Assembly: GCA_003543115.1 (NCBI GenBank)
Contig: DPJH01000036.1
Location: 9,182 to 73,181 of the forward strand
Length of the DNA stretch: 64,000 nt
Origin: Candidatus Moraniibacteriota bacterium
Lineage (GTDB): Bacteria > Patescibacteriota > Minisyncoccia > Moranbacterales > UBA2206
Direction: 5' to 3'
Positions 13,268 through 37,003 of this stretch are shown in pieces. The notes below the pieces were generated by a model that was not told the origin of the DNA, did no database searches, and saw nothing but the letters and a program-made list of their open reading frames with translations. Every line of letters starts with the position of its first letter. The stretch's first letter is position 1. Made by a program: the position numbers and the translations under genes.

Positions 13268-13530
13268 GGTGTGATATTAATAAGAAAGATTCGTTATAAA
13301 AATAATTATATCATGCAAAAAAACAGATGTCTAAGCAAAATGTGGATAAAGGTGTGGATAAGCTGTTGTTAATAAGAAATAATCATAAATATATGTTCAT
13401 TATAGAATAGGATGGTAAAAAAGCAAATGGGAATAATTTAAATAAAAAGATAAAGCATATAATTGACTTTAGTAGAATTAATTGATAAACTTCTAATTAT
13501 TCAAAATAATAAAGAATATAATATATAAGT
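13268..13530. promoter_or_regulatory. probable oriC / dnaA promoter region (rpmH-dnaA divergent intergenic)
   Basis: Two perfect same-orientation DnaA boxes (TGTGGATAA) sit at 13341-13349 and 13353-13361, followed by a roughly 150-bp very AT-rich tract. This is the canonical rpmH<>dnaA origin context. Confidence 0.6.
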
Positions 13531-19764: not shown

Positions 19765-20947
19765 TTTGAAAAACCTGGCTTACTTTACCATAATGGCAAT
19801 GCCATTATATATATTTAGATTTTCTATTTTAGGTGTGCCGACCAATGTTTTTGAAATATTGGCTATTGTTAGTATAAGTCTGTTTTTTATCCGTGTTGTG
19901 GGCTCCAAAATTAAGCTTGAAGGCTCTAAAACGTATCTTATGCCTATAATTATGGTATTGGCAGGATTGTTGATTTCCGCGCTCTATAATGACGCGCATC
20001 AAAGCGGCTTTGGCATAATAAAAAGCTGGTTTATAATACCTATTGTTTTTTCCTGGATTTCATTGCAGCTATCAGAAGACAGAAAAGATATTTTAAAGGC
20101 CATGCACGGTTCAGCTTTCTTGGTAGCTTGCTTGTCTTTGCTATATTTTATAGCAGGAGAAACAACTTTTGATGGGAGGTTGCAGGCTTTTTATAATTCT
20201 CCAAATTTTTTAGCGATGTTTCTCGCTCCATCTATCATGATTGGTGTTTTTTTATTGAAAGAGAATAAAAAGATTTATTCGATGACTCTCTCTGTGATGC
20301 TGGTTTCATTGTATTTGACTCAATCATACGCCTCTTGGATAGCTGTTTTCATAGCCATGATTCTTTTATTGTTTCTAAAAAAAGATTTATTAAAAAGGAA
20401 TTTTATATTAATCCTAATGCTCATTTTTATTCTATTCTTTTCCTTGCAAAAAGGAACAGACAAGCTTAATCGCTTTACTAATATGGAGGAAAGGTCTTCT
20501 GCGGCATCTCGAATGATGATTTGGTCATCAGCCATGAAAATAGGCTTGGATAATCCGGCAATAGGCATAGGGCCGGGTAATTTTCAGAATAAATACTTGG
20601 AATACCAAAAATATTTTCCGCCCTATCTTGAATGGGCGGTTCCTCAGCCGCACAATCTATTCTTAGCTTTTTGGCTGCAAGCAGGCGTTTTGGGGATTGT
20701 CGGTTTTTTATGGATTCTTTTTTTGTGGTTTAGGAAATTCATACAAAAAAATGAGAAGCAAAAAGAAGATTACATCTGTTTGGGAATAATAATTTATATC
20801 ATGGTTCACGGATTGTTTGATACGACCTATTTTAAAAATGATTTAGCTGTTATTTTTTGGCTTATAATTTTTTATTATGAAAAACATCTATCCCAAGGAG
20901 ATAGATGTGGAGAATATTTTAACAGGAAATGCAAAACTAAAGCCTGA
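19748..20947 (+). CDS. O-antigen ligase / Wzy_C family membrane protein (second paralog)
   Basis: Has the motif GIGPGNFQNKY...PHNLFLAFWLQAGVLGIVG and is polytopic. Confidence 0.65.
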   Translation: MKEIFNLKNLAYFTIMAMPLYIFRFSILGVPTNVFEILAIVSISLFFIRVVGSKIKLEGSKTYLMPIIMVLAGLLISALYNDAHQSGFGIIKSWFIIPIVFSWISLQLSEDRKDILKAMHGSAFLVACLSLLYFIAGETTFDGRLQAFYNSPNFLAMFLAPSIMIGVFLLKENKKIYSMTLSVMLVSLYLTQSYASWIAVFIAMILLLFLKKDLLKRNFILILMLIFILFFSLQKGTDKLNRFTNMEERSSAASRMMIWSSAMKIGLDNPAIGIGPGNFQNKYLEYQKYFPPYLEWAVPQPHNLFLAFWLQAGVLGIVGFLWILFLWFRKFIQKNEKQKEDYICLGIIIYIMVHGLFDTTYFKNDLAVIFWLIIFYYEKHLSQGDRCGEYFNRKCKTKA

Positions 20948-22088
20948 TCCTATATAGCTTATCATCAATTTTATTCACAAAAAACAGATAGCTCTCATTG
21001 TAGCTAAGAAATAGGCCGGTGGCATCGTAAGTTGTTTTAAGTTCTTCCAGCGGAACTACGCGGGTTTTTTCTCCGGTTTTCAAATTAACTTTCCAAAAAG
21101 TGTCGTTGGTGGTAAAGGAACTATCAAGATAGTCATTAGGTAAGATATTTTTTTCTGAAATAGATCCAGGCAAGGCACAGAATACGAAGCTATTGTTTTT
21201 TGACCAAACACATTTGGAAACGAAAGTGGGCAGTCCGATGTTTTTATATTCTCCGCCTAGGCTGTTGGCAAAGCCTAGTTCCATTTTATGCCCACCCTTT
21301 TGGTCTACATTGCTTCGCAAAAACATGGTTCCGTCGCTGTTCCACAAATAATCAGCGCCAAAAACTCCGGATGACAGTACTTTGGTTTCTCCTCCCATAA
21401 TAGGGGTGGACTGGAATAGTGTTTCGGAAAAGGAGTCAGGCTTATTCCAAAAAGAAATAAAACCTGATTTTGGAACAGGAGCTATGCTAATGCTGTCTGA
21501 GGAAAAGGTAGTAATTTTATTCCAATTTTCTCCATTGGGATCAGAAATATTGATGGATTTCTCTTTATTTTTATTGTCGAAGTAGGTATAAATAATTTTT
21601 TTATTGCTTTGCCATGAGACAGCGCCGATGCTTTCATTGAGCCGAGAGGCTTTTTTGGTCAGATAGTCGAAGAAAGAAAATTTCGGATATCCGGCGCCGC
21701 TCGAAAATTTTGAAATGACCATTCCCTGGTTAGGAGACCAATAAACATCAAGAAGACCGATCAGATTGGCATCAGAAACAACCTTTTTTTCTAAAGTCAA
21801 GAGATCCAATTGATAAACCTTTCCGCTGGATTTGGAATAATATTTCATAGATTCATCGTTGTCTGAGAGTATGGGTGAAATAACGGATTCGTCGGTGATT
21901 TTTTGGATGCGTTCTTCGTTGCCGACAATGCTTGTTTTTTCGACTTGGGCATCATCGGATTTTTTACTGACAACAGCTTCTTTTTCCGGAGAGGGTTTTT
22001 TGAAGGAAAAAATATAGATTCCCCAAAACAAAAGAGTAATCAAGAGGATAGAGGATGATGTAATGAATATTTTTTTTGAGAGAAGCAT
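20937..22088 (-). CDS. membrane-anchored TolB-like beta-propeller protein
   Basis: An N-terminal TM helix is followed by repeated WSPxxxxIxF-like blades (VYWSPNQGMVISKF, VSWQSNKKIIYTYF, LWNSDGTMFL, CVWSKNNSFVFCAL) resembling the WD40-like PF07676 repeat. Confidence 0.5.
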   Translation of the reverse strand: MLLSKKIFITSSSILLITLLFWGIYIFSFKKPSPEKEAVVSKKSDDAQVEKTSIVGNEERIQKITDESVISPILSDNDESMKYYSKSSGKVYQLDLLTLEKKVVSDANLIGLLDVYWSPNQGMVISKFSSGAGYPKFSFFDYLTKKASRLNESIGAVSWQSNKKIIYTYFDNKNKEKSINISDPNGENWNKITTFSSDSISIAPVPKSGFISFWNKPDSFSETLFQSTPIMGGETKVLSSGVFGADYLWNSDGTMFLRSNVDQKGGHKMELGFANSLGGEYKNIGLPTFVSKCVWSKNNSFVFCALPGSISEKNILPNDYLDSSFTTNDTFWKVNLKTGEKTRVVPLEELKTTYDATGLFLSYNESYLFFVNKIDDKLYRIRL

Positions 22089-22105
22089 TTTTTTGTATTT
22101 TAAGC

Positions 22106-23185
22106 TTATTTAGCCAAACATTGTTTTTGGTAGTTTTGAACTTTCTGGACATAGTCCCGGGTTTCTTTATATCCTTGCTTGTTGGGGTTGTTTTTATGGA
22201 CACCTTCTCCTTCCACGCTTCCGTCAGCAAAATAAGGGCATTGCCACGCCGGCATGCTTTCAGGATATCCTGCTCGCCCCTTGCAGGCTTGAGATTCGGC
22301 AAACGGGCCAAGTTTTCCTTCACCAGCCTTTGCTCCTCCTCCGCCATTATAGGATGCGATTAAATCGTCATTTCCTGTATAATAACTGCCTCCATCCGGG
22401 AAAGTTACTTTTTCTGTGCCAGGAGTTGTTTGTTTGCTGGTTGGGAATTTTGTATATGAATTAAGCTGGGATTGGTTTGATTTGAGAAGCTCAGCGGCCT
22501 TTTTGATGCTTTTTTCCGGATCGCTTAACTCCGATGCGCTCATACCGGCGGTATCAGGCTTGATTTGCATGAGTCCATAAGCTCCTTTATTGCTGCCTCC
22601 TACATTAGAATTGCATCCGCTTTCCTGCATGGCAATTCCCTTAAGAAGGCATTGGGTTTCTTTATCCGGAGCAGCTGAATTAAATTGTGAATCATATTTA
22701 TCGCATGCTGGAGAAAGAGATCCTAGTTTGACAGGAGTGCCGGTTGTCGGAGGGGTCTCACCAGGCTTAGTTGGTGTTGTTGGTGCTCCTCCTCCCGTTG
22801 CCGCTCCTCCGCCCTTGGTTCCGCAAATGCCATTTATTTGGGTGAGATCCGGATTGATTTCATACAGAATGAGATAGGAAAAAAAAGCGAGCAACAATCC
22901 TACGATAGCATCAAAAATCACTCCTTTGGCTTTTCCCATGCTGGCATTGTTTCCGGCTGACATGATATACATATAGCCTCCGATTATGATCATAAACATA
23001 GCGCAAATACCGATCACCCAAATCCCGAATTTGTAAACAGCAGAAATATAGTTGCAAAAATTTCCATCAGTCGTAACTCCCGGAATTTTTTCCATGGGAG
23101 TATAATCAAAAGAAGCTAAAACATCCAAAGCAGGCATTGCGATGAAGAGAAGAGCAAAAAAAGGAAGAAGAAATTTTTTAAGCAT
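22106..23185 (-). CDS. VirB1-like cell-wall hydrolase: VirB2/TrbC-like pilin-type membrane anchor fused to SLT lytic transglycosylase domain
   Basis: The N-terminal 130 aa comprise a signal peptide plus two hydrophobic helices separated by a short loop, which is TrbC/VirB2-like topology. A Gly/Pro/Thr linker follows. The C-terminus has the SLT motif AMQESGCNS...GAYGLMQI. Confidence 0.6.
   Translation of the reverse strand: MLKKFLLPFFALLFIAMPALDVLASFDYTPMEKIPGVTTDGNFCNYISAVYKFGIWVIGICAMFMIIIGGYMYIMSAGNNASMGKAKGVIFDAIVGLLLAFFSYLILYEINPDLTQINGICGTKGGGAATGGGAPTTPTKPGETPPTTGTPVKLGSLSPACDKYDSQFNSAAPDKETQCLLKGIAMQESGCNSNVGGSNKGAYGLMQIKPDTAGMSASELSDPEKSIKKAAELLKSNQSQLNSYTKFPTSKQTTPGTEKVTFPDGGSYYTGNDDLIASYNGGGGAKAGEGKLGPFAESQACKGRAGYPESMPAWQCPYFADGSVEGEGVHKNNPNKQGYKETRDYVQKVQNYQKQCLAK
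22789..23185. repeat. direct repeat copy A (~400 bp, 100% identical to 23933-24330)
   Basis: Direct comparison of the two stretches, covering the 5' ends of the two tandem paralogs, showed no mismatch. Confidence 0.85.
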
Positions 23186-23214
23186 AAAAACAGTGCGGTT
23201 AAAACATTTACATT

Positions 23215-24330
23215 TTATTTACAATTATAACATACATCCCAATGATTACCTTCTCTTGCATAAGTGTTTCCAGACGGATCTTTATATAAAGTTGCGCCAT
23301 CGCTACGTGTGCCAGTTTTTTTATAGTTTGTCTGGATATAGTTATTGACTACCGGAGTATCATCGATATCAATTTTATATCCATTCGCATGCGAATAATT
23401 TCCACTTGCGTGTGGGCTGCTTTCTGCTCCTCCGGTAATGACAATTGGTGCGCCAACTTCTTTTTGGAAAGCAATGATGCTGTTAATTGAAGTATCTTTG
23501 AGTCCGCTTATTTTAGTTGCGCCAGGACTTGATTCCCATACGCTGATTTGCCCGTTACTTCTATTTGTTAAATCAGTTCTTGAAGTTGTTTCCGAGGCTG
23601 GGGAGCTTTCAGGACAGGGCTCATTGGTTATAGGATTGCCCCCCTCACATCCATCGGGAGACCTAGAGGTTATGAGTCTTGAGTGTGTGGTGCTTCCGGG
23701 CGTGCACAATGTCCAGGGTGAATATTCAAATTCAGTGCAGGTGTTTCCATTATTGCAAGTCCTGCTGGTAGCTTCTGGTGCTTTGCCGGTGCACCCGATA
23801 GGCAGTCCGGTAGCGGTCCTTGTTTGAGTTTCACTGCCTGTACACTGATCCGGTTCCCAGGATGAATAAGTAAAAGCACTGCATTCCTTGCCTTCTCCAT
23901 AAGGCTTTTCTGTTTCAGTCTTTGTCGTCTCCTCTCCTCCCGTTGCCGCTCCTCCGCCCTTGGTTCCGCAAATGCCATTTATTTGGGTGAGATCCGGATT
24001 GATTTCATACAGAATGAGATAGGAAAAAAAAGCGAGCAACAATCCTACGATAGCATCAAAAATCACTCCTTTGGCTTTTCCCATGCTGGCATTGTTTCCG
24101 GCTGACATGATATACATATAGCCTCCGATTATGATCATAAACATAGCGCAAATACCGATCACCCAAATCCCGAATTTGTAAACAGCAGAAATATAGTTGC
24201 AAAAATTTCCATCAGTCGTAACTCCCGGAATTTTTTCCATGGGAGTATAATCAAAAGAAGCTAAAACATCCAAAGCAGGCATTGCGATGAAGAGAAGAGC
24301 AAAAAAAGGAAGAAGAAATTTTTTAAGCAT
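23215..24330 (-). CDS. paralog with identical pilin-like anchor fused to Cys-rich putative peptidoglycan peptidase (M15-like) domain
   Basis: The first roughly 131 codons are nucleotide-identical to 22106..23185. The C-terminal domain has SPHASGNYSHANGYKIDID and a late HWD, reminiscent of the Zn-peptidase M15 H-x-x-G-x-x-x-D / H arrangement; this is tentative. Confidence 0.45.
   Translation of the reverse strand: MLKKFLLPFFALLFIAMPALDVLASFDYTPMEKIPGVTTDGNFCNYISAVYKFGIWVIGICAMFMIIIGGYMYIMSAGNNASMGKAKGVIFDAIVGLLLAFFSYLILYEINPDLTQINGICGTKGGGAATGGEETTKTETEKPYGEGKECSAFTYSSWEPDQCTGSETQTRTATGLPIGCTGKAPEATSRTCNNGNTCTEFEYSPWTLCTPGSTTHSRLITSRSPDGCEGGNPITNEPCPESSPASETTSRTDLTNRSNGQISVWESSPGATKISGLKDTSINSIIAFQKEVGAPIVITGGAESSPHASGNYSHANGYKIDIDDTPVVNNYIQTNYKKTGTRSDGATLYKDPSGNTYAREGNHWDVCYNCK
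23933..24330. repeat. direct repeat copy B (~400 bp, 100% identical to 22789-23185)
   Basis: Same as copy A: the two stretches are identical by eye with no mismatch. Confidence 0.85.
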
Positions 24331-24338
24331 AAGTTTTT

Positions 24339-27167
24339 CTAATATTCTTTTCTTTCCGGAGAGATGCTGAGGATGAGGCTGCTTGAGAATATGATCAGAG
24401 CAAAGGTTACAATTATTTTAAAAAGGAAGCTTATATATCCAGGCAGGCCTGAGAAAAGGCTGGCTAAAATTTTATTTTCATCTTTTTTCTGATAAGTGAT
24501 TTTTTTCTCTCCATTTATATTATCCGATACTATTACTTTGATTGTTTTAACGATGTCATTTTCCGAAAGGTTTGATCTTGAGATGTTCCATTTGTCATAT
24601 AAGGCTTTTTTTGTGGCTTCGTCTTGTTTGTGCGAAGTGGTGCTAGTTATGGTATAGGAAGCTCCCAGTTGTTTGGTTACGGGAAGATTAAGCGTATTCC
24701 CTCCATCGCTTACGAACGCTTCAATGCTGGAGTTGTTAGTATTTATTATTTCCTCTCCATCTACAGTCCAAGTGGTTGTTCCAAGAGAAGCGGTATTGTT
24801 AGGCGCTTGTAATTTTACCGTAGAGCCTGCTACTGCTTGAAAGAAATCTTTGCTGTAATCATCCCATTGAAGACCTTTGTCCTTATCCACAAATTGTCCC
24901 ATAAGAACAGGCGAAAGATTATTGGGATCGGTAGATTTTATATTGGCAGTTGGCTCGGAGATTGAAAAAGAACGGGTAAGGGTGATTTTTTCGGCAGAAT
25001 CCTTGCCGGCAATATCTAATTTGAGCACATAAGCTTTTCCTATTTCCTCGGTAATAGGAAAATAAATAAGATTATTGTCAGAATTTTCAGGAGAGAGCCT
25101 TTCTCCGTCCAGTGTCCAAGAAAAATTAAATTTGGAAGGATTATATTGTTCAGTTGGAATTCTGGCGGAAATAATTTCATCCGGAGTAACGGGGCATATG
25201 AATTTTTCTGACTCAGCGGTGCATCTTTCTTTTTCTTCATGGGTTAATTTTCCGGTAGCGGCATCAGCCTTAGCGGAATGGACCTTAATTTCTCCTTTGG
25301 AATTTTGAACGGTTATGATCGTAGTTTCTAATCCTTCCTTGGTAACATCAGTTGAAGAATTTTCTTTGGTTTTCAGCGTGGCTCTGACATAAAAAGCACT
25401 GGCATTTTCTGAAATTCCTTTAGCGGCCAAAACCTCTTTCTTAATGGAATCCAGGGGAATGTTCAGTTCTCTCAGTCCGATTCCTTCGAGAGGAAAATTT
25501 CCTCCCAGATCGGTCTGGGTCAAAGAGCGCCAATTGGAAGAATCGGGAGATTCAGCGATAGCCAACTCCCATTTATAATAGGTAAAGCCGCTATCTTCAT
25601 TGTTGGTGGTGTTAGATCGAATGGCAACAGTATCTGAATTTGCTCCTCCGGTGGACGAATCATATTGGGGTTTTGAATTGCTGACAGACAGGTTGTTGTT
25701 TATTTTTTTATAATCCCTTCCAGCGGTTGGTTCAACAAAAGCATCGTCAAGAGATTCATTGATAGATTCTATGGTTGGTTTTTCCGGTTCCTCCTCCCCT
25801 TCTTCCAATTTAGTTTCTGAAGTTTTGCATTCTTGTCCTTCTTCGCCATTATCATCAAAATTAACGCAGACCTCGCAACCTTCGGGATAACTTTTGTCTA
25901 TAAGAATGACTAGATTGGAAGATTCTTCAGCTTTCCATTTGAAAGCAGGGTTGGACTCTTCATATTTTCCAGGTATTCCGGGATTAGCAAATGCTTTGGT
26001 GGTGTTTTCCGAAGAACAGGATATTTGAACGTTGCAATCTCCATCTTTTCCTCCGCAATACGCATCACCTTTTTTATTAAAATGGAAATACCAGTCTCCA
26101 TTTTCTTTTCCATTTCCCATGGTTTTTATAATATCCGGGTTGTTGGAAATAGCCCACATAGTCTTGAAGGAAGAGTCTTTGGTTGAGGTCGAGCCGGTGG
26201 AAATTCCTTCCACTGCCACTCCTATTTTGTCGCCGGGAGAATAGATCCATTTGAATTCCATTTTTCCAAGGCCGGCTACGCTGGCTTCATCCATCACTCC
26301 GCTGCTGGAAGTATCATTGGAATTGGGATCGGTTCTCCAAAAAGATTCTTCTTTGGCTCCGAAATGTCCATCGCCCACTTTCTCATCTTTGAGTCCCGGA
26401 AAAGAGCTGACATCGGGAAAAAGATGTTCACAGCTTTCCATTTCAATGTCCTCTCCCGTCTCTACGTTACGGGCAAAACAATAACTGTTTTTTCCTACCT
26501 GGTCATCTCCTCCGAAAACAGCCAAATATTCGTCGGAATCGTTATTGTTGCCAGATTCACCTTCATATTGATTGGGCAAGGAACAGTGATCAGGCGGATA
26601 TTCGCTTGTACAGTTCGGATCATCTTTGCCAAGAATTTTTTGCCATTCAAAATTCCCCGAAGCGATGATTCGCATAGCTTCAATTTTATAGTCTTCTATA
26701 TCCGTTTCCCCGTCTTTGTTATAATCGCATGATCCGGGCTCTTCTTCGCAACGAGCTCGTTTTAGGAACCATGTAAAATACATATCATTGGGCTTGTTGC
26801 GAAAAAGGGACGTTTCAGCTATAGCGGTCAATTCTTTTCCGGGAATCGGATTGGTCGGAACGAATTGTACATTTACTTGCGGAGCATCTGTTTTGTAACT
26901 CATGTAATTTACTTGGGAAGTCGCCTTTAGAAGCTCTTCTTTTTCCATGCCGAAATCTTCCAAAATCTGAGTGATAATTTTTTTAACACCTGGATCAGCT
27001 TTGATCAATCCGGCAGAGGAAAAAATTCCCGCTTGTCCAAAAATAGAACTGAGAACGTCTCCTTCGGAAGTGTCTGAAGAATCAGCTTTGGATATAAAAG
27101 GAATATTAAGGCCGAGAATTAACGACAAAATCAAGATAAAACAGGATGTCTTTTGAAAAAAATGCAT
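24339..27167 (-). CDS. large (942 aa) Cys-rich secreted/surface protein with C-terminal TM anchor
   Basis: Has an N-terminal signal peptide (MHFFQKTSCFILILSLILGLNIPFISKA), many Cys, Asp/Glu/Asn/Ser-rich stretches, and a C-terminal hydrophobic anchor (IIVTFALIIFSSSLILSI). It is embedded in the T4SS-like operon. Confidence 0.5.
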   Translation of the reverse strand: MHFFQKTSCFILILSLILGLNIPFISKADSSDTSEGDVLSSIFGQAGIFSSAGLIKADPGVKKIITQILEDFGMEKEELLKATSQVNYMSYKTDAPQVNVQFVPTNPIPGKELTAIAETSLFRNKPNDMYFTWFLKRARCEEEPGSCDYNKDGETDIEDYKIEAMRIIASGNFEWQKILGKDDPNCTSEYPPDHCSLPNQYEGESGNNNDSDEYLAVFGGDDQVGKNSYCFARNVETGEDIEMESCEHLFPDVSSFPGLKDEKVGDGHFGAKEESFWRTDPNSNDTSSSGVMDEASVAGLGKMEFKWIYSPGDKIGVAVEGISTGSTSTKDSSFKTMWAISNNPDIIKTMGNGKENGDWYFHFNKKGDAYCGGKDGDCNVQISCSSENTTKAFANPGIPGKYEESNPAFKWKAEESSNLVILIDKSYPEGCEVCVNFDDNGEEGQECKTSETKLEEGEEEPEKPTIESINESLDDAFVEPTAGRDYKKINNNLSVSNSKPQYDSSTGGANSDTVAIRSNTTNNEDSGFTYYKWELAIAESPDSSNWRSLTQTDLGGNFPLEGIGLRELNIPLDSIKKEVLAAKGISENASAFYVRATLKTKENSSTDVTKEGLETTIITVQNSKGEIKVHSAKADAATGKLTHEEKERCTAESEKFICPVTPDEIISARIPTEQYNPSKFNFSWTLDGERLSPENSDNNLIYFPITEEIGKAYVLKLDIAGKDSAEKITLTRSFSISEPTANIKSTDPNNLSPVLMGQFVDKDKGLQWDDYSKDFFQAVAGSTVKLQAPNNTASLGTTTWTVDGEEIINTNNSSIEAFVSDGGNTLNLPVTKQLGASYTITSTTSHKQDEATKKALYDKWNISRSNLSENDIVKTIKVIVSDNINGEKKITYQKKDENKILASLFSGLPGYISFLFKIIVTFALIIFSSSLILSISPERKEY

Positions 27168-27183
27168 AAAATTTAAAAAATAA

Positions 27184-27843: not shown

Positions 27844-27871
27844 ACTAAATTTTTTTAGAATTTTTCTGCAG

Positions 27872-28363: not shown

Positions 28364-28386
28364 ACTGATTATATGTTAATCATTTT

Positions 28387-30213: not shown

Positions 30214-30239
30214 AAGGTATGAATTTTATAATTTTTTAA

Positions 30240-30926: not shown

Positions 30927-31330
30927 TATTTTTTCTTTATTTCTAGCAATTGGGATACTTTTTTAATTTCTTCAAGGCTGATTTCTTTGTTAGTGTGAAC
31001 GGATGACTTTTCATTGATTATTTTTGTGTGTTTGAATAAGTTTTTGGTGTCTGGCATTCTTCTCCACATATATATTTTTGGCTTGGAGAAAAATATGAAT
31101 ATTGATCCTAGAGCGGATATAAGAGGTTGTCCATTGGGCCGATAGAAAGCCAGTCCTCCAAAAATAAAAGCTACAAAAAAAGTTGACACAACAAAGGCTG
31201 CCAAATCAAGAACGCTCCAAAGTAAAAGAAGACACACTCCTCCTGCTGCCAGCCATCCTAATTGTTTGGCGGTCAAAGGGCCGACGATCTTATCTTCGAT
31301 ATCAATAAATTGTGGGATGTTGAATATCAT
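30926..31330 (-). CDS. VirB3-like small membrane protein
   Basis: A 134-aa protein with two TM helices immediately upstream of VirB4, overlapping it by 1 nt. This is the typical VirB3/ConD-type position and topology. Confidence 0.4.
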   Translation of the reverse strand: MIFNIPQFIDIEDKIVGPLTAKQLGWLAAGGVCLLLLWSVLDLAAFVVSTFFVAFIFGGLAFYRPNGQPLISALGSIFIFFSKPKIYMWRRMPDTKNLFKHTKIINEKSSVHTNKEISLEEIKKVSQLLEIKKK

Positions 31331-31348
31331 GGAATTAATTTTTGAATT

Positions 31349-32635
31349 TTATATCTCTCTTAAGTTTACCACATTTTTTCCGCTTGGTCTTGGAGGTGCG
31401 GGCTTTTTTTCGAGAACGACAGTGTTTGTTTTCGGTGTGGATGATTGGTAGGGCTTGACCGGCAAATTATCGGGTGATTGCGGAGTCGAAAAATATTTTT
31501 TTTGTTTCGCTATAGGATCCTTTTCATATTCATAAGGAAGTTTTTGGGGAGAGGAAAAAGTCATTTTGTTAGTTTGCAGTTCGCTTGCCTGCTCGCCTTG
31601 CTCTCGACTCGTCGAAGCGGGCCGGCGAGGCGGGTAGTTCGTAGTTTGTGGCGAGTTGTTGTCTGTGTATGGTTGGCCGTGGTCATTTTTCTTGTTAGCT
31701 TCAATTGGTCGTGACGTAGATGATTCTGTTTCAGCGATAGATGTTGCCGGTGCAGTTTGAATTTTGGGCTTCAATGTTTCTGGAACGTTTCTGCCTGCTG
31801 CGGGAGAGGTGAAAGGCGGAAAAACTATTTGTCTGGTTGTTTTGTTGATGGAAATGGGAGTTTCATCGTTGAATGATTTTAGGATATATGTCAGTTTTTG
31901 TCTGTCGGAAGAACTCATTTTCTTGGTGTTTTCACTATGAAATAGATAGTTTCCGATTTCAATGGCGCTATGTTTTTCATATCCGAAATATGAAGTGTAG
32001 TCAGCTAGCCAGTTTGCAAGCGATGGACGCACCGATTCCGGAAAGCTGAGAATCTTGATGCGTTGCGAGGTGATGATCTGTTCTCCGATGTCCGGAATCT
32101 CTTTGAGTGCCTGAAAAATAGGCATTTTCATCAGTGAGGGCGCGTTTTGTTCTTGTGATCCGACAGAATTTTTGGAGAGTGGTTCCTGCAAGGACAGTTC
32201 GCGTGCCTTAGAAAGAATTCTAGATGAAATATCTTGCGCAATTTGATTGCAGGCCGCTGAATCTATGCCAAGATTTTTTTCTAACAGGCCATTGATATCT
32301 TCCCATTCTTTAGTTCGGCACAATTGCCATACGATGTGGGGCAGCGCATCTCTTTGTTTTTGGGATAGATTGAATTTTTTAGCCAAATCATCATAGAAAA
32401 GGGCATGCTCAAAAGAAAGCAGAAAAAAAATCAAATTACTGTCCATTCCAGAGAGGGTGTTGGGAAAAATTTGCGCATTGGCGTTTTGTTTCTTCCATTT
32501 TTCCAGTAATTCTTTTTTTGTTTCGGCTATTTCTTCGGCTATTTTTTGTTTTTCCAGTTCTAAATCATAGCCTTGGTATGAAGGATTGCTTTGATTGAAC
32601 CTATTGTAATCAGTCTTATTTTGATATGTTGGCAT
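31349..32635 (-). CDS. hypothetical soluble protein with Pro/Ser/Thr-rich C-terminal tail
   Basis: No TM helix. The C-terminal third is low complexity (PQTTNYPPRRPASTSREQGEQ...) and is encoded by a locally GC-rich stretch at 31560-31700. Confidence 0.4.
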   Translation of the reverse strand: MPTYQNKTDYNRFNQSNPSYQGYDLELEKQKIAEEIAETKKELLEKWKKQNANAQIFPNTLSGMDSNLIFFLLSFEHALFYDDLAKKFNLSQKQRDALPHIVWQLCRTKEWEDINGLLEKNLGIDSAACNQIAQDISSRILSKARELSLQEPLSKNSVGSQEQNAPSLMKMPIFQALKEIPDIGEQIITSQRIKILSFPESVRPSLANWLADYTSYFGYEKHSAIEIGNYLFHSENTKKMSSSDRQKLTYILKSFNDETPISINKTTRQIVFPPFTSPAAGRNVPETLKPKIQTAPATSIAETESSTSRPIEANKKNDHGQPYTDNNSPQTTNYPPRRPASTSREQGEQASELQTNKMTFSSPQKLPYEYEKDPIAKQKKYFSTPQSPDNLPVKPYQSSTPKTNTVVLEKKPAPPRPSGKNVVNLREI

Positions 32636-32655
32636 TTTATATAATATTTTAAATT

Positions 32656-33054
32656 CTAAAATTGAAAAACTGCCTGATTGTCTTTGATATATTGAATAAT
32701 CATATTCAATCTTTGTTGATTTTTGGTTGCGTTTTCTCCTAAGTTTTTATCCATGGCTTCAGAAATTTCAAAAGCTTCTTTTGTGATATAATCTTTTCTG
32801 ATTGTTTCAAGAAGCTCTGTTTTGTAGTTTTCCGGAGCATTTTTGCCGATATATTCTATATTAGCTTCTGAAATGCCGGCTATTATGCTCGGATAGGAAA
32901 AGGAATATACGCTTGATAAGAGAAGCTCTTCCCCTTTGAGGGACAGTATGTGTTGGGCTAATGCAACTTTTTGTTGGATAGTGTCTTGCGGGAAGGCAAT
33001 GTGGGGTATCGCAAATTTATCTAAAATTTCTTCACTAATGATATCGCTAAACAT
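32656..33054 (-). CDS. small hypothetical cytoplasmic protein
   Basis: A 132-aa intact ORF within the operon. Confidence 0.35.
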   Translation of the reverse strand: MFSDIISEEILDKFAIPHIAFPQDTIQQKVALAQHILSLKGEELLLSSVYSFSYPSIIAGISEANIEYIGKNAPENYKTELLETIRKDYITKEAFEISEAMDKNLGENATKNQQRLNMIIQYIKDNQAVFQF

Positions 33055-33071
33055 GTTTTTAAGTAAAATAA

Positions 33072-34964
33072 TTAGGTCCAGAGAGCGTCAACCACTCCCC
33101 TGGCTTTTGCTGCGGCAGTATTAATTTCTGGCGTTGTCGGCTTATCGTTTGTTTCTGCAACTTTATGCGCTTGCTTGGCCTTATCATTAAGCACTTTCCA
33201 ATTGAGAGCGATTTGTTGCTTGATATAATTTTCTTTTTGTTCAGAATTTTTTCCTTGCATATTTGTAGCGTGCATTCTATTTCTTGGATCGAGAACCTCG
33301 CTTCTTACTTTCAATTCAAATTCATCCTTTTTGCTAGTATCAGTTTTAAGATGATGTAGCATGGATGCCACTTTAACAGCTTCTCCATATCGTTTAGACG
33401 GATCTTTGTGGTGTAAGTCAGCTTTTAATATCTGATGAACAAGACTGTCTTTTCCAATCGCATCAATGTGATCATTTTCATCAGCTTTTTCCTTATATTT
33501 CTTTCTGAATTCTTCCACCCTCTTGTTTTTACTGGCATCTTTCCATCCTTTTTTGCCTCCAGTGACTCCTCCTGCAATTTGAGACTCTCGTTCTTCTTTG
33601 CCGCTCTTAAATAAGAATCTTGAATATTTATTATCCATTCCAAAAATTTTCCCGCTCTTTCTTGTGTTTTCCCATCCTTTCTTTATTCCACCTGGAATGC
33701 CAGTTGTGTTCCATGCGCCTTTTCCAAAGCTTTTCGCCATACCAATGCCTTTTCCGCGCACTTTTCCAAGAATTGATCCTGCTCCGTCAATTCCCTTCAC
33801 TGCCATGCCCATTCCTATCCAAAGTATAACAATAGGAGGAATAAATCTTGTCATACCTATAACAATATTGTTGGGCGCTGCTTCCATGCCTCCTATAAAC
33901 CCAACATCATTAGTTACGGCTGCCAATGTATTCATTAATTGTGTTGATATATAAAGAACCAGAGCGATAATTGGTCCAGCCATGGCATATTTGAAAAGAT
34001 TGTTCCACCATTCTCCGCCCTTTCCAATAATAGATCCTGCAAACCCGATAGGAGAAAAAATTATTATAATTCCTAGGGCAATAGTTCGTATGAGCAGTAT
34101 GAAGGCGAGAGCTAAAATAGTAAGAGCCAAGACAAAAATAAATATAATAGAAGCAAGCATTTGAGGAATATTAGCTTTTTTGTCTGTTATGATAATTTGC
34201 AGGTTATCGAAGGCAGATATGCTTGTTATTATTTCTCCCCCAGATTTATTGCTACCCATTAAGTTGTCAAGCAGGGTATACATAAGGGAATTGCTAATAT
34301 CAATAATAAAACGAGTAATAGGAAAACTGAAGTTCACTAAAAGTGCCATAATAACCAACCAAAGCAGTATATTTTTATAGTTATATTTGCTATATTGAAA
34401 AACAGTGGAAAAAGCGGAAAAAAGAAGAACTAAAATAAAGCCTATATTGCAAAGATCTCTGACTTTGCTCCATATTTCATATATAGCTGGATCAGAAAGC
34501 ATAGCTGAGGCAGTGTTTGCATCAATTACTTTTGAAAATAACAAAACAGCTAGATTGAGTATCCATCCAGTAAAATAAAGGACGCCCTGAAGTAACCACA
34601 TAATGGCGCCTTCAGCTGCATCTCCAACAGCTCCTGTAAATTCCTTGTCATTCTTAACTTCTTGTATTAGTCCAGCTGATTTTGTGAAAAATGGATATCC
34701 CGATGTACCTTTTTTTATAAAATCTGTTCCATATTTATAACGTCCACCATTTGATCCGCATTTTTTTTCGCATGCCTCTTTTGTCGGAGCTGTTGTTGAA
34801 TCGCCTGTTGCATAGCTTACAATATCACCAATATTTGCCTGAAAACAAGTACATGTATTTGATGCGGCTAAAATAGGCGTTGTATCAAAAAACAAAAAAC
34901 CGGCAGATATGATAAATATCGCTAAGAGTGTTGTGAATATTTTTTCCCTTTTTTGGTCTTTCAA
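33072..34964 (-). CDS. VirB6/TrbL-like polytopic membrane protein
   Basis: A signal peptide and Cys-rich extracellular N-domain are followed by about 6 TM helices and a Lys-rich cytoplasmic tail. Size and position are typical of VirB6 in Gram-positive/CPR T4SS loci. Confidence 0.5.
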   Translation of the reverse strand: MKDQKREKIFTTLLAIFIISAGFLFFDTTPILAASNTCTCFQANIGDIVSYATGDSTTAPTKEACEKKCGSNGGRYKYGTDFIKKGTSGYPFFTKSAGLIQEVKNDKEFTGAVGDAAEGAIMWLLQGVLYFTGWILNLAVLLFSKVIDANTASAMLSDPAIYEIWSKVRDLCNIGFILVLLFSAFSTVFQYSKYNYKNILLWLVIMALLVNFSFPITRFIIDISNSLMYTLLDNLMGSNKSGGEIITSISAFDNLQIIITDKKANIPQMLASIIFIFVLALTILALAFILLIRTIALGIIIIFSPIGFAGSIIGKGGEWWNNLFKYAMAGPIIALVLYISTQLMNTLAAVTNDVGFIGGMEAAPNNIVIGMTRFIPPIVILWIGMGMAVKGIDGAGSILGKVRGKGIGMAKSFGKGAWNTTGIPGGIKKGWENTRKSGKIFGMDNKYSRFLFKSGKEERESQIAGGVTGGKKGWKDASKNKRVEEFRKKYKEKADENDHIDAIGKDSLVHQILKADLHHKDPSKRYGEAVKVASMLHHLKTDTSKKDEFELKVRSEVLDPRNRMHATNMQGKNSEQKENYIKQQIALNWKVLNDKAKQAHKVAETNDKPTTPEINTAAAKARGVVDALWT

Positions 34965-35011
34965 CTTTTTCGTATATGAAATGATTTCTATTATTTTATC
35001 CAGTCAATTTC

Positions 35012-35965
35012 CTATGTCGGATTGTCCGGATTGACCCATGGTTTGGCCTCTCCTTCCGGTGCTTCATTTTCTTCGCTATTTTGAGCGTCTTGGTCTTCTT
35101 CTCCCGTGTTTTCCTGAGATTTTCCGATTCCGTCTTGAATGGTTTGGGATACGAATTGGGTGACCATTCCGGCTATCACATCTTGCATGCTGGTGGCGCT
35201 GGAAATGGAATCAAAGCTCATGGCATTGGCATTGCTTAACTGGGAAGCGATATAGGCTCCGGGAGTGACAACCTTTCCATTTTTTTCGGTCCCCTTATAT
35301 CCCATGCCGGCGATAGCTTTGACCTCGGCGATTTGTCTTGTTTCTTCCAGTTTCTTTTGATACATGCTCTGGACATATAGTTGGTAGGACCAGGGATTGT
35401 TGATTCCGGAAAGATAGGAATTAAAATTGTTGAGATTCCCATCGCTAAAGAGATTTTCACTTGGATTGCCCACATAAGTCGTTTTCAATTTCTTGGTTTC
35501 TGATTGAATCATTGATTTAGCCATACTGGAGAGTTGTTTTTTGAAGTCAGCTCCTCCGCTGCCTTGAGGAAAATAATCGCCAATGCCTTCAGCTGAAACA
35601 TAGCTGCTCAGATCTTGTCCGCCAACACTTTCACTTATATAGTCATTTATATAGACTTGGGCGCTTTTTTCCGATTGGGTGAAAAGATAGTCCTTATAAT
35701 TGCTGATTATTTTGCTGTCTTTCGAGCTGCTTCCCCCGACAACATTGCTTACTTGTTCGCTGATCATCTTGATTGCCATCTGTTTCATGGCGCCGGTAAG
35801 AATATTTTTGACCATGTCTTGCACATAAGCCATGATTCTGTTTACCAAAGTAGCCGGTATGGCCATCCAGGCATCGGCTTTTTGGGCTTGGACAGGAGCA
35901 AAAGCCAAGCCGATAGAAAAAATAAAAACAAAAATAATTTTACGAAAATTTGATTTAGACTTCAT
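35012..35965 (-). CDS. secreted protein (signal peptide), possible VirB5/pilus-associated component
   Basis: Begins MKSKSNFRKIIFVFIFSIGLAFAPVQAQKADA. The mature protein is predicted helical and ends in an acidic tail. Confidence 0.35.
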   Translation of the reverse strand: MKSKSNFRKIIFVFIFSIGLAFAPVQAQKADAWMAIPATLVNRIMAYVQDMVKNILTGAMKQMAIKMISEQVSNVVGGSSSKDSKIISNYKDYLFTQSEKSAQVYINDYISESVGGQDLSSYVSAEGIGDYFPQGSGGADFKKQLSSMAKSMIQSETKKLKTTYVGNPSENLFSDGNLNNFNSYLSGINNPWSYQLYVQSMYQKKLEETRQIAEVKAIAGMGYKGTEKNGKVVTPGAYIASQLSNANAMSFDSISSATSMQDVIAGMVTQFVSQTIQDGIGKSQENTGEEDQDAQNSEENEAPEGEAKPWVNPDNPT

Positions 35966-35971
35966 ATTGGT

Positions 35972-37003
35972 TTATTTTATTTCCTCGAGAAAATTATCAG
36001 AAACGGAAACCCCATAATCGTTCAGTTGCTTTTGCATATTGGAATCAAGTTTCAAGTCATACTGCTCTATCTTTTTTGTAATAGAGTCGGAAAAATCAGA
36101 AACAAGCATGGTGGCGCTTTGGATGTTTGAATAATTCACTAGATTGGTCAGAGGATCATCTTGGACCGAATTCACCGAGTTTTTGAGCTGATCGACATAA
36201 CTGATCAGCTGGAGTCCCTTGATGTGGTCCTCAGTCATTTCTTCAGGCACTTCTATATCTTTTATTTGAGAGGATATTTTCTTTAGGGACAAGTCCAGAT
36301 CTTCGATGGAGCTGGAGTTTTGAGAGCTAAGAGCGCTTCCTATTTTCTCCATAACAGAAGAGTTGAGCTTATTGATGTCATCGTTTGAGTTGATCGGTTC
36401 CGGGGAATTGGAAAGTAAGACATAGGAAATTCCGGTGATATAGTCGCTCATATCCTGCTTTTTCTTTTCCAGCTGTTTTTCTTTGGATAATCCATCATAA
36501 TCCTGCTTTTTTATTTTTATTTGCTTGGGGTCTGCAGGAGGCGGGAGTTCTCGGGCGGATTTTTCCTGTTCTATGGATTCATTGACAATAGTTTTTATCT
36601 GTTCGATGGTTTCCTGCTGATTTTCGGAATCTGCATTTTTCAAAGTGGTGGAAATTTTTTTAGAAACCTCTTTGGTGAGATTTCTTTTGTCGGAGTCGTT
36701 ATTTTTTTTATCAGAAAAAGTGTTTGCATCCGGAATCAGCTTGTCTCCGGGCGATGGTTTTTTGGGATCATAGCCGCTTTTTACTTCTGCTCCGTCAGAA
36801 TATCCATCTCCGTCAGTATCCGTTTTGTTGGGATTGGTGCCATAAGTTTTTTCTTCATCATCCGAAAGGCCGTCTTGATCGCTATCAAGGAAGATGTTTT
36901 TAGTGGTGATTGATTTTTCTTCAGCATAAGCATAGAAAGAAAAACTGCTGACGATAAGTATCAATAAAACAGCTAAGGATATTTGAAAGTTTTTTATTTT
37001 CAT
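35972..37003 (-). CDS. secreted protein with thrombospondin type-3-like Ca-binding repeats
   Basis: A signal peptide is followed by DSDQDGLSDDEE...TDTDGDGYSDGAEVKSGYDP (DxDxDG motifs). Confidence 0.5.
   Translation of the reverse strand: MKIKNFQISLAVLLILIVSSFSFYAYAEEKSITTKNIFLDSDQDGLSDDEEKTYGTNPNKTDTDGDGYSDGAEVKSGYDPKKPSPGDKLIPDANTFSDKKNNDSDKRNLTKEVSKKISTTLKNADSENQQETIEQIKTIVNESIEQEKSARELPPPADPKQIKIKKQDYDGLSKEKQLEKKKQDMSDYITGISYVLLSNSPEPINSNDDINKLNSSVMEKIGSALSSQNSSSIEDLDLSLKKISSQIKDIEVPEEMTEDHIKGLQLISYVDQLKNSVNSVQDDPLTNLVNYSNIQSATMLVSDFSDSITKKIEQYDLKLDSNMQKQLNDYGVSVSDNFLEEIK

What the first reader, a model, noticed from the sequence alone, without database searches (positions are those of the whole stretch)
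20937..37003. About 16 kb minus-strand operon-like block of type IV secretion-like genes with unusual composition
Thirteen consecutive same-strand genes encode a VirB4-family ATPase (split), a VirB6-like polytopic protein, a VirB3-like small membrane protein, and two pilin-anchored cell-wall hydrolases. They also encode a 942-aa Cys-rich surface protein, a Ca-binding TSP3-repeat secreted protein, a TolB-like propeller and several unclassifiable membrane and soluble proteins. No relaxase, coupling protein (VirD4) or integrase is visible, so it does not look like a conjugative element. A chromosomal T4SS-like apparatus of this kind, lacking DNA-processing genes, is what CPR/Saccharibacteria-type epibionts use for host interaction. 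Most components here have no assignable family, so the block may hold novel machinery parts.
Basis: partly seen in the sequence, partly recalled or inferred. Interest (0 to 1): 0.8.

Follow-up and report, generated by a model that had tools for sequence, protein, structure and literature searches.

The report
Chromosomal type IV secretion locus, Moranbacteria
This 16-kb gene block is the chromosomal type IV secretion system typical of ultra-small Patescibacteria (here a Moranbacteria genome), a kind of locus already described in 2023-2025 papers, so it is a real but largely expected feature with several still-unnamed parts.

Summary
The block is real. It holds 14 tightly packed minus-strand ORFs (20937-37003), probably one operon.

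- **Assigned parts:** a VirB4 ATPase, a separate TrsD/TraC-like protein, a PrgI/VirB3-like protein and a TrbL/VirB6-family protein. There is also a Ca-binding TSP3 protein. Two exported enzymes are anchored by a VirB2-like pilin hairpin: one SLT transglycosylase and one probable LAS-type peptidase.
- **The VirB4 "split"** is a two-gene arrangement kept in 78 of 78 related loci, not a broken gene.
- **Organism and inheritance:** Candidatus Moranbacteria (Patescibacteria). The whole block, with the same housekeeping flanks, recurs in about 40 related species. It lies 8-24 kb from oriC.
- **Not an ICE:** I found no relaxase, coupling protein, att repeats or adjacent integrase in the window or 10 kb beyond each end.
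- **Already known:** this matches the Patescibacteria T4SS of Quinonero-Coronel 2025 and Wang 2023, so it is a new member of a known kind.
- **Still unassigned:** six conserved genes (g4, g5, g6, g10, g11, g13) have no family. g1 is only weakly TolB-like.
- **Local features:** there is no free-standing pilin gene. The two pilin-enzyme genes share a 100% identical 398-nt 5' part.
- **Composition:** the offset is small (39.2% vs 35.8% GC) and lineage-wide.

The parts
35972..37003 (-). g14: secreted protein with an N-terminal signal peptide and two bacterial TSP3 Ca-binding repeats (DSDQDGLSD at aa 40, DTDGDGYSD at aa 62). First gene of the block.
   Evidence: Pfam TSP3_bac 4.8e-15. Motifs. Homologues in 45 related loci.
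35012..35965 (-). g13: 317-aa protein with a signal peptide or N-terminal anchor, predicted mostly alpha-helical. No family assigned.
   Evidence: No Pfam or PDB hit. The AF2 model is unusable (pLDDT 46). Conserved in 45 loci.
33072..34964 (-). g12: polytopic VirB6/TrbL-family membrane protein (630 aa) with a variable Lys-rich C-terminal tail.
   Evidence: Homologue P0006 (39% identity, 97% coverage) passes Pfam TrbL PF04610 with 30.6 bits, above the 25.9-bit cut-off. Relatives carry PF19590 TrbL_3. Invariant membrane-core residues are listed.
32656..33054 (-). g11: small soluble 132-aa ORF. A variable accessory gene.
   Evidence: Found in only 5 of 80 related loci. No family hit.
31349..32635 (-). 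g10: 428-aa protein with no hydrophobic segment, so presumably cytoplasmic. It has a conserved core at about aa 160-290 and a Pro-rich tail ending in a conserved NVVNLKE motif. No family assigned.
   Evidence: 799 cluster representatives at E<=1e-3. No Pfam domain in 82 members. No PDB match. Always located between VirB6 and VirB3.
30926..31330 (-). g9: PrgI/VirB3-like small membrane protein. Its stop codon overlaps the g8 start by 1 nt.
   Evidence: Pfam PrgI 4.1e-9, 37.3 bits against a 27-bit cut-off. Found in 76 of 80 loci. The overlap is shown.
30240..30926 (-). g8: TrsD/TraC-like protein, homologous to the N-terminal roughly 180 aa of full-length VirB4. A separate gene.
   Evidence: NCBIfam: VirB4_plasma 1.2e-12, TrsD 6.3e-8 (below its cut-off) and conju_CD1110 profile positions 16-119. 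Precomputed PF26593 TraC-like. hhalign against pGO1 TrsD gives P 1.6e-4 over 180 columns. A stop codon precedes g7 in 78 of 78 loci. About 70 positions are at least 90% conserved.
28387..30213 (-). g7: VirB4-family ATPase of the CD1110 / MPF_FATA type, with intact Walker A and B motifs.
   Evidence: It is 69-91% identical to 80 Patescibacteria loci but at most 35% identical to plasmid VirB4s.
27872..28363 (-). g6: 163-aa polytopic membrane protein, always directly downstream of VirB4. Candidate core subunit with no family.
   Evidence: 73 of 80 loci have an ORF with a blastp match covering at least half of g6. That includes the minimal loci, where hhalign to the L058 ORF gives 1.2e-43. Not homologous to the pilin domain or to pGO1 Trs proteins.
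27184..27843 (-). g5: 219-aa polytopic membrane protein with no family.
   Evidence: Hydropathy. Found in 53 loci. No Pfam or NCBIfam hit.
24339..27167 (-). g4: 942-aa surface protein with a signal peptide, a large exported region and a C-terminal TM anchor. It has a conserved Asp-rich N-terminal domain (aa 87-340, including DYNKDGETDIEDYK at aa 148).
   Evidence: No Pfam or PDB match. Found in 50 loci.
23215..24330 (-). g3: signal peptide, then a VirB2-like T4SS_pilin helical hairpin (aa 43-110), two Cys-containing beta modules, and a C-terminal probable LAS-type Zn peptidase domain (aa 275-371, with H314-x6-D321 and E360-x2-H363).
   Evidence: T4SS_pilin 0.0024, sub-threshold. Homologues of the N-domain pass the threshold, and hhalign to free pilins gives 4e-10. 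AF2 pLDDT is 74 overall and above 90 in the C-domain. Invariant motif. Top Foldseek hits are Hedgehog N-domains at E 0.26, not significant.
22106..23185 (-). g2: signal peptide, then the same VirB2-like hairpin fused to an SLT lytic transglycosylase domain (aa 178-286, catalytic QES at aa 187). This is the VirB1 equivalent.
   Evidence: SLT 2.1e-12. Motif. The PF18895+PF01464 architecture is common in relatives.
20937..22088 (-). g1: 383-aa protein with an N-terminal TM anchor and a large exported domain, possibly a TolB-like beta-propeller. Last gene of the block.
   Evidence: TIGR02800 E 0.0013, far below its cut-off. The PDB TolB profile hit has E 0.028. Mean column identity of the family alignment is 53%, and 40 loci have a tblastn match.
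22790..23185 (-). Copy 1 of the perfect direct repeat of about 398 nt (5' end of g2).
   Evidence: 100% DNA identity to 23935-24330.
23935..24330 (-). Copy 2 of the perfect direct repeat (5' end of g3).
   Evidence: Independent assemblies break at this repeat.
20884..20908 (-). Terminator-like hairpin (11 pairs followed by a T-run) just after the g1 stop codon.
   Evidence: a consensus scan only.

Best explanation
**What it is.** This is the chromosomally fixed, vertically inherited type IV secretion system of a Candidatus Moranbacteria (Patescibacteria) genome. It belongs to the Patescibacteria lineage derived from the Gram-positive MPF_FATA conjugation machinery.

**Shown here**
- The membrane translocon is encoded by g7 (VirB4 ATPase), g8 (TrsD/TraC-like N-domain protein), g9 (PrgI/VirB3) and g12 (TrbL/VirB6).
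- g6 is a further conserved small membrane protein next to VirB4.
- g2 is an exported SLT lytic transglycosylase, and g3 a probable LAS-type peptidase. Both are tethered by a VirB2-like helical hairpin.
- g1, g4, g5, g10, g13 and g14 are co-conserved with these genes in one tightly packed cluster.

**Inferred**
- VirB4, TrsD and VirB3 dock on VirB6 to energise assembly and transport across the single membrane.
- The tethered enzymes open peptidoglycan, either the cell's own or the host's.
- The exported proteins g14 (Ca-binding), g13, g4 and g1 form or decorate the extracellular, host-contacting part.
- No relaxase or coupling protein lies in the locus or nearby. The machine therefore most likely serves contact-dependent exchange with a host cell (protein export or uptake of host material) rather than conjugation. 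This follows the proposals made for Saccharibacteria.
For: **Family assignments:**

**Organism and conservation**
- g7 is 69-91% identical to VirB4 in 80 Patescibacteria species-level loci, but at most 35% identical to plasmid VirB4s of Firmicutes and Actinobacteria.
- The full gene order plus the flanks KsgA, UbiA and the two Wzy genes is conserved in about 40 species.
- The TrsD/VirB4 two-gene arrangement occurs in 78 of 78 loci.

**Chromosomal context**
- The flanks are housekeeping genes, and oriC lies nearby (dnaA, dnaN, rnpA, yidC and DnaA boxes).
- No relaxase, T4CP or adjacent integrase was found in 64 kb plus 10 kb on each side.
- No direct repeats flank the block.
- Block GC tracks each genome's GC across relatives.

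**Literature**
- PMC12102498 describes the same component set, the lack of relaxase and the position near dnaA, rnpA and ksgA.
- PMC10633639 shows that the Saccharibacteria T4SS is essential for epibiotic growth and lacks coupling and relaxase proteins.
- PMC12857230 reviews it as a possible conduit.
Against: - The function was not tested. Neither the direction of transport (export or import) nor the substrate is known.
- No VirB8-like protein was detected.
- Six genes have no family, so their membership in the machine rests only on conserved linkage.
- Only the 64-kb window plus 10 kb on each side, not the whole genome, was searched for a coupling protein. Most Patescibacteria genomes do encode VirD4 homologues far from virB4 (PMC12102498).
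- The pilin-like domain of g2 and g3 is itself below the Pfam threshold (18 bits against 26.6). Membership is transitive, through homologues.
- I built no VirB4 phylogeny.
Confidence: 0.8

Rival explanations
1. The block is an integrative conjugative element, or a decayed remnant of one, that happens to sit in the chromosome.
For: - The VirB4, PrgI, TrsD and TrbL genes derive from Gram-positive conjugation systems.
- Block GC is slightly above the flanks.
- A tyrosine recombinase and two tRNA genes lie in the window at 52.7-53.9 kb.
Against: - The same genes sit between the same housekeeping neighbours in about 40 species.
- Block GC follows each host genome, from 30% to 48%.
- There are no flanking direct repeats, no relaxase and no T4CP.
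- The recombinase is 15.7 kb away. KsgA, PNPase, UvrD and other core genes lie in between.
Confidence: 0.03
2. The machine is a DNA-uptake (competence-type) T4SS. It would be analogous to the Helicobacter ComB or the archaeal Ced systems, which also work without a relaxase.
For: - No relaxase or T4CP is present.
- g7 gives a weak NCBIfam hit to the DNA import protein CedB (5.4e-14, far below its cut-off).
- Patescibacteria lack nucleotide synthesis. A 2026 preprint links VirB4 and tubular structures to uptake of host nucleic acid.
Against: - The best VirB4 match is the conjugative CD1110 family, not CedB.
- In Southlakia, loss of comEC abolished competence but not viability, while the T4SS stayed essential (PMC12857230).
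- No DNA-binding or nuclease component was recognised in the block.
Confidence: 0.12
3. Only g6 to g12 form the T4SS. The outer genes (g14 and g13 upstream; g5, g4, g3, g2 and g1 downstream) would be a separate cell-surface and wall-remodelling module that is merely co-located.
For: - A second group of related loci (L055-L074) keeps only pilin genes followed by g9, g8, g7 and g6, without the other genes.
- The outer genes have no T4SS family hits.
- The flanks encode Wzy and glycosyltransferase envelope genes.
Against: - The genes share one strand with gaps of 47 nt or less, and the strongest terminator-like hairpin on the coding strand lies just after g1; the other minus-strand matches are weak and the scan total is no higher than in shuffled sequence.
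- Their order is conserved with the core in about 40 species.
- g2 and g3 carry a T4SS pilin domain, and g2 is the usual VirB1-type enzyme.
Confidence: 0.15

Closest known systems
Patescibacteria-clade T4SS (Quinonero-Coronel et al. 2025, PMC12102498; Southlakia epibionticum SEML1_0006-0019, Wang et al. 2023, PMC10633639)
   Same: - MPF_FATA-type VirB4, a separate TrsD-like gene, PrgI/VirB3, VirB6/TrbL and a VirB1-type hydrolase.
- PF18895 VirB2-like pilin domains near virB4.
- No relaxase or coupling protein in the locus.
- Chromosomal position next to dnaA, dnaN, rnpA and ksgA.
   Different: - There is no array of free-standing pilins. The only pilin-like modules are fused to an SLT domain and to a LAS-like enzyme domain.
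- There is a clade-specific set of conserved extra genes (g1, g4, g5, g10, g13, g14).
- The organism is Moranbacteria (Paceibacteria class), where no functional data exist.
Gram-positive conjugative T4SS of the pGO1/pSK41 type (TrsB, C, D, E, F, G ... K, L)
   Same: - The gene order VirB3-like, TrsD, VirB4, membrane protein, then cell-wall hydrolase.
- TrsD and VirB4 as two genes of similar sizes: 227 and 672 aa in pGO1, 228 and 608 aa here.
- A TrbL-family protein.
   Different: - No relaxase, T4CP (TrsK), topoisomerase or SSB.
- Chromosomal and vertically inherited.
- VirB4 identity of 35% or less to any plasmid VirB4 in the collection.
- The hydrolase has SLT without CHAP and is pilin-anchored.
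- g6 and the other unknown genes show no detectable similarity to TrsA, F, H or J.
Relaxase-less T4SSs that move substrates other than conjugative DNA (Bordetella Ptl and Brucella VirB effector or toxin systems; Helicobacter ComB DNA uptake)
   Same: They operate without a relaxase and, for Ptl, Brucella VirB and ComB, without a VirD4-type coupling protein (PMC12102498; PMC12857230).
   Different: - Those are diderm MPF_T systems with a VirB7, VirB9 and VirB10 outer-membrane core.
- Nothing of that kind is present here.
- The comparison concerns how the machine might work, not family membership.

Membership tests
Type IV secretion system (any class) | A VirB4-family ATPase with intact NTP-binding motifs | tested here: met
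   g7 hits NCBIfam conju_CD1110 with 372 bits, above the 325-bit cut-off, and P-loop_TraG at 9e-29. Walker A is at aa 263 and Walker B at aa 469.
MPF_FATA (monoderm conjugation-type) T4SS | PrgI/TrsC-type VirB3 next to VirB4 | tested here: met
   g9 hits Pfam PrgI with 37.3 bits, above the 27-bit cut-off. It lies directly upstream of g8 and g7.
MPF_FATA (pGO1 subclass) | A separate TrsD protein homologous to the VirB4 N-terminus | tested here: inconclusive
   Four results point the same way. NCBIfam TrsD gives 6.3e-8, but 32.7 bits is below its 200-bit cut-off. VirB4_plasma N-terminal positions match at 1.2e-12. PF26593 TraC-like is precomputed. hhalign to pGO1 TrsD gives P 1.6e-4 and probability 50%. 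The family's own threshold is not reached.
MPF_FATA / T4SS core | VirB6/TrbL-family polytopic protein | tested here: met
   Membership is transitive. g12 has no direct Pfam hit. Homologue P0006 (39% identity, 97% coverage) passes PF04610. Many relatives carry PF19590 TrbL_3.
MPF_FATA / T4SS core | VirB8-like (NTF2-fold) bitopic protein | tested here: inconclusive
   No Pfam, NCBIfam or PDB-profile hit for any block protein. Only g13 was modelled, and that model was unusable. Structure-based detection was not possible for the others.
Conjugative T4SS / ICE | A relaxase and a VirD4/TcpA coupling protein associated with the locus | tested here: not met
   None found among the ORFs of at least 110 aa that were scanned (nearly all of those in the 64-kb window). 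None in the called genes 10 kb beyond each end. The rest of the genome was not searched.
ICE / genomic island | An adjacent integrase, flanking att direct repeats, and variable presence among relatives | tested here: not met
   No flanking repeats. The nearest recombinase is 15.7 kb away, behind core genes. The locus and its flanks are conserved in about 40 species. GC tracks the host genome.
Patescibacteria-clade T4SS (PMC12102498) | VirB4 falls within the monophyletic Patescibacteria clade | not tested
   No tree was built. As a proxy, g7 is 69-91% identical to VirB4 of 80 Patescibacteria MAGs and at most 35% identical to the best plasmid VirB4s.
Patescibacteria-clade T4SS (PMC12102498) | A chromosomal locus near dnaA, dnaN, rnpA and ksgA, with VirB2-like PF18895 domains near virB4 and no relaxase | tested here: met
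   dnaN, dnaA, rnpA and yidC lie at 10.4-14.8 kb, and KsgA at 38829-39653. DnaA boxes are shown. The pilin domains of g2 and g3 are supported.
T4SS_pilin (PF18895, VirB2-like) | A match to the family profile, with signal peptide plus two-helix hairpin topology | tested here: inconclusive
   g2 and g3 score 18 bits, below the 26.6-bit cut-off. Close homologues of the same domain pass it at 27.9-32.4 bits. hhalign to free-standing pilins of L058 gives probability 96.7% and E 4e-10. AF2 predicts a helical hairpin at aa 43-110 with pLDDT 77-88.
LAS / peptidase M15-type Zn hydrolase (g3 C-domain) | H-x6-D ... (E-x2-)H metal and catalytic motif on a Hedgehog/DD-peptidase fold | tested here: inconclusive
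   The motif is invariant in 16 homologues (H314, D321, E360, H363). The top Foldseek PDB hits are Hedgehog N-domains, but at E 0.26-0.5. Peptidase_M15_3 matches only 1 of 16 members, at E 0.02. The PDB profile search found nothing.
TolB-like beta-propeller (g1) | A significant match to TolB/PD40 propeller profiles | tested here: inconclusive
   TIGR02800 gives E 0.0013 with 17.8 bits against a 343-bit cut-off. The PDB TolB profile hit has E 0.028 over about 90 residues. No Pfam hit.

The most novel reading that the evidence does not exclude
In this Moranbacteria clade the T4SS may have been rebuilt into a host-wall-breaching contact apparatus. There is no free pilin. Instead, the VirB2-like hairpin would carry muralytic enzymes (an SLT transglycosylase and a LAS-type peptidase) out through, or alongside, the VirB4, VirB3 and VirB6 channel. 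Six co-conserved proteins without a family would form a previously undescribed extracellular and cytoplasmic module of the machine. These are g4 (a 942-aa Ca-binding surface protein), g1 (a possible propeller), g13, g5, g6 and g10 (presumably cytoplasmic).
Probability: 0.2. Interest if true: 0.6.

Novelty: new member of a known kind. Interest (0 to 1): 0.3.

Why it matters
Patescibacteria make up a large share of bacterial diversity. Their T4SS is the first T4SS shown to be essential for the growth of the bacterium that carries it (Saccharibacteria, PMC10633639), yet its substrate and direction of transport are unknown.

This locus adds a well-resolved Moranbacteria example with three useful properties:
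- It separates a minimal core (pilin domain, VirB3, TrsD, VirB4, g6, VirB6) from a clade-specific set of conserved accessory genes.
- It shows pilin-domain-to-enzyme fusions as the only pilin-like genes present.
- It names concrete unknown families that are candidates for missing T4SS parts. One is g10, with about 800 clusters at 50% identity and no Pfam domain.

None of this changes the current picture. It supplies targets for structure prediction and, once a Moranbacteria co-culture exists, for genetics.

Tried and rejected
- **PDB profile searches.** Profiles of g12, g13, g10 (two alignment depths), g4 and the g3 C-domain found nothing significant. g1 gave only a weak TolB hit.
- **Permissive family scans.** Pfam at E<=5 and NCBIfam at E<=0.1 added nothing for g4, g5, g6, g10, g11 or g13.
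- **g13 structure.** AF2 with 11 sequences gave pLDDT 46, so I ran no fold search on it.
- **g6 as a pilin.** I tested whether g6 is a divergent VirB2-like pilin. hhalign gave probability 1%, so I rejected the idea.
- **Comparison with pGO1.** I compared the unknown families with pGO1 TrsA, B, C, F, G, H, J, K and L. Only g8-TrsD, and weakly g12-TrsL, gave a signal.
- **g10 family.** I scanned 82 members against Pfam and found no domain.
- **Independent contigs.** I looked for contigs that bridge g3 and g2. None is on record.
- **Recent horizontal acquisition.** I considered it because of the GC offset. I rejected it because the offset is small and occurs in 29 of 31 related loci whose GC ranges from 30% to 48%.

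Full report
**Observation**

The region 20937-37003 holds 14 ORFs on the minus strand. Intergenic gaps run from -1 to 47 nt. A terminator-like hairpin follows the last stop codon (20908-20884), and a 142-nt divergent intergenic region lies upstream of the first gene. I number the genes g14 (35972-37003) down to g1 (20937-22088), in the direction of transcription.

**Components with a family**

- **g7** (608 aa) is a VirB4 ATPase. It hits Pfam P-loop_TraG at 9e-29 and AAA_10. It hits NCBIfam conju_CD1110 with 372 bits against a 325-bit cut-off, covering profile positions 180-734 of 752. Walker A (GAGKS, aa 263) and Walker B (IVLVDE, aa 469) are intact.
- **g8** (228 aa) covers positions 16-119 of that same VirB4 model. 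It also hits VirB4_plasma N-terminal positions at 1.2e-12 and TrsD at 6.3e-8, which is below the TrsD cut-off. It carries a precomputed PF26593 TraC-like hit. It aligns end to end with pGO1 TrsD (hhalign P 1.6e-4).
- **The "split" is not a lesion.** In 78 of 78 related loci g8 ends at a stop codon before g7 starts. About 70 positions of g8 are at least 90% conserved.
- **g9** is PrgI/VirB3-like (4e-9, above threshold). Its stop overlaps the g8 start by 1 nt.
- **g12** has no direct Pfam hit. Its homologue P0006 (39% identity over 97% of the length) passes TrbL/VirB6, and many relatives carry TrbL_3.
- **g14** has two TSP3 Ca-binding repeats.
- **g2** has an SLT domain (2e-12) with the QES catalytic motif.

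**The pilin-anchored enzymes**

g2 and g3 share an N-terminal module: a signal peptide followed by a two-helix hairpin.
- The module scores below the Pfam T4SS_pilin cut-off (18 bits against 26.6).
- Close homologues of the same module pass it (27.9-32.4 bits).
- The module is homologous to free-standing pilins that sit upstream of VirB3 in other Moranbacteria loci (hhalign probability 96.7%, E 4e-10).
- AF2 models the hairpin at pLDDT 77-88.
- In relatives this domain is fused to SLT, to SLT_3 or to the g3-type domain. "Pilin-anchored hydrolase" is therefore a recurrent architecture.

The C-domain of g3 (aa 275-371, pLDDT above 90) has invariant H314-x6-D321 and E360-x2-H363. This is the LAS/M15 zinc-peptidase pattern. 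The top Foldseek PDB hits are Hedgehog N-terminal domains, which share the LAS fold, but they are not significant (E 0.26). Sequence searches do not reach threshold either. I treat g3 as a probable peptidase, not an established one.

An HMM of the pilin module finds no other copy in any frame of the 64-kb window. This clade therefore has no free-standing pilin gene at the locus.

**Components without a family**

g4, g5, g6, g10, g11 and g13 gave no hit in Pfam, NCBIfam or PDB.
- They are real genes. tblastn finds them in 45-63 of 80 related loci, except g11, which is found in 5.
- g6 always follows VirB4, even in the minimal loci. I regard it as a candidate core subunit.
- g10 has no hydrophobic segment, so it is presumably cytoplasmic. 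Its family has 799 representatives at E<=1e-3, and none of 82 members scanned has a Pfam domain.
- g1 is only weakly TolB-like.
- g4 has 15 Cys in 942 aa, so "Cys-rich" overstates it. Its conserved N-terminal domain is rich in invariant Asp and Gly and has a DxNxDG loop.

**Organism and inheritance**

- g7 is 69-91% identical to VirB4 in 80 species-level MAGs labelled Moranbacteria, Parcubacteria or Patescibacteria.
- g12, g13 and g3 are identical to NCBI proteins DIC35_03360, DIC35_03365 and DIC35_03315 of a Candidatus Moranbacteria MAG.
- The population comes from a sediment metagenome.
- The order g14 to g1, with KsgA and UbiA on one side and two Wzy genes on the other, is conserved in about 40 species.
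- A second group of loci (L055-L074) keeps only pilins followed by g9, g8, g7 and g6.
- The window flanks are housekeeping genes. dnaN, dnaA, rnpA, yidC and perfect DnaA boxes lie at 11.7-13.4 kb.

**Is it a mobile element?**

The evidence says no.
- There is no relaxase, T4CP or adjacent integrase among the window ORFs that were scanned (nearly all of those of at least 110 aa), or in the 10 kb beyond each end.
- The one tyrosine recombinase (52702-53658, next to tRNA-Val and tRNA-Met) is XerC/D-like. It lies 15.7 kb away, behind KsgA, PNPase and UvrD.
- No direct repeats flank the block.
- The block is slightly GC-richer than the rest of the window: 39.2% against 35.8%, and GC3 0.375 against 0.309 with p 2e-4.
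- The same small excess appears in 29 of 31 related loci, whose GC ranges from 30% to 48%. It is a property of these genes, not a sign of recent transfer.
- The best plasmid VirB4 matches are at most 35% identical. They are CD1110-family proteins of Firmicutes and Actinobacteria.

**Comparison with the literature**

- Quinonero-Coronel et al. 2025 (PMC12102498) describe a monophyletic Patescibacteria VirB4 clade nested in MPF_FATA.
- That clade comes with TrsD, PrgI/VirB3, VirB6, VirB1 and PF18895 pilins near virB4. Relaxases are almost absent, T4CP genes lie far from virB4, and the locus sits next to dnaA, dnaN, rnpA and ksgA. This block fits that description point by point.
- Wang et al. 2023 (PMC10633639) showed that the Southlakia T4SS is essential for epibiotic growth and lacks recognisable coupling and relaxase proteins. 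They proposed protein export or another role.
- A 2025 review suggests a conduit for signals or uptake (PMC12857230).
- A 2026 preprint links tubular structures and VirB4 to the acquisition of host RNA.
- The gene order VirB3, TrsD, VirB4, membrane protein, hydrolase mirrors pGO1 TrsC, D, E, F, G.

**Mechanism**

What is shown is the gene set, its conservation and the intact ATPase motifs. The rest is inference:
- VirB4, TrsD and VirB3 assemble on VirB6 in the single membrane.
- g2 and g3 are placed outside the membrane by their hairpin topology and cut peptidoglycan.
- g14, g13, g4 and g1 build or decorate the external, host-facing part.
- g10 acts on the cytoplasmic side.
- Transport is non-conjugative. 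Its direction and substrate remain open.

**Verdict**

This is a genuine, well-preserved Patescibacteria-type T4SS and a new member of a known kind. The local points of interest are:
- the pilin-enzyme fusions as the only pilin-like genes;
- the perfect 398-nt repeat shared by g2 and g3;
- the head-on orientation of a 16-kb operon next to oriC;
- six conserved genes with no family.

Noticed in passing
window 22790-23185 and 23935-24330: The first 398 nt or so of g2 and g3 (signal peptide plus pilin hairpin) are 100% identical at the DNA level, and the genes then diverge completely. Most relatives have one such gene. L005 has two, with N-termini 90% identical. Independent assemblies of the same population break at this repeat, so only the NCBI MAG contig bridges g3 and g2. 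The cause could be recent duplication, gene conversion or an assembly join.
   Followed up: partly
window 11730-13361 versus 20937-37003: Perfect DnaA boxes and the cumulative GC-skew minimum place oriC around dnaA (11.7-13.4 kb). The 16-kb T4SS operon lies 8-24 kb to its right but on the minus strand. It is therefore transcribed toward the origin, head-on to replication. The orientation relative to the neighbouring genes is the same in related species.
   Followed up: partly
window 23610-23880 (g3 aa ~150-240): The g3 linker holds two Cys-containing modules (C..F.YS.W..C....TQ.R....GCTG..P......C). By eye they resemble thrombospondin type-1-like repeats. AF2 models them as small beta modules, and they recur in homologues P0133, P0136 and P0158.
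   Followed up: no
L055-L074, e.g. L058 7272-12585: A second group of Moranbacteria/Parcubacteria loci has a minimal arrangement next to ComM, G5 and KsgA: two free pilin genes (one with two pilin modules), then VirB3, TrsD, VirB4 and a g6-like gene. It has no VirB6 and none of the accessory genes of this window. VirB6 must be encoded elsewhere in those genomes.
   Followed up: partly
window 52702-53878: A XerC/D-like tyrosine recombinase (Phage_integrase plus SAM_1 domains) lies directly upstream of tRNA-Val(GAC) and tRNA-Met(CAT). Housekeeping genes surround it, and I saw no sign of an island.
   Followed up: partly
window 2811-6754: A cluster of one 7TM_transglut membrane protein and three ATP-grasp (RimK / ATPgrasp_ST) genes, possibly a peptide-ligase module.
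   Followed up: no
L083 1249-4272 (about 9 kb left of the window start): A 1007-aa protein with two T2SSE (PilB/GspE-like) ATPase hits. It probably belongs to the type IV pilus or type II secretion machinery of the same genome.
   Followed up: no
window 51247-52509 and 39795-40775: Two further exported cell-wall enzymes lie outside the block: a LysM+CHAP protein and a G5/DUF348/DPBB (RlpA-like) protein. The second is syntenic with KsgA in relatives.
   Followed up: no
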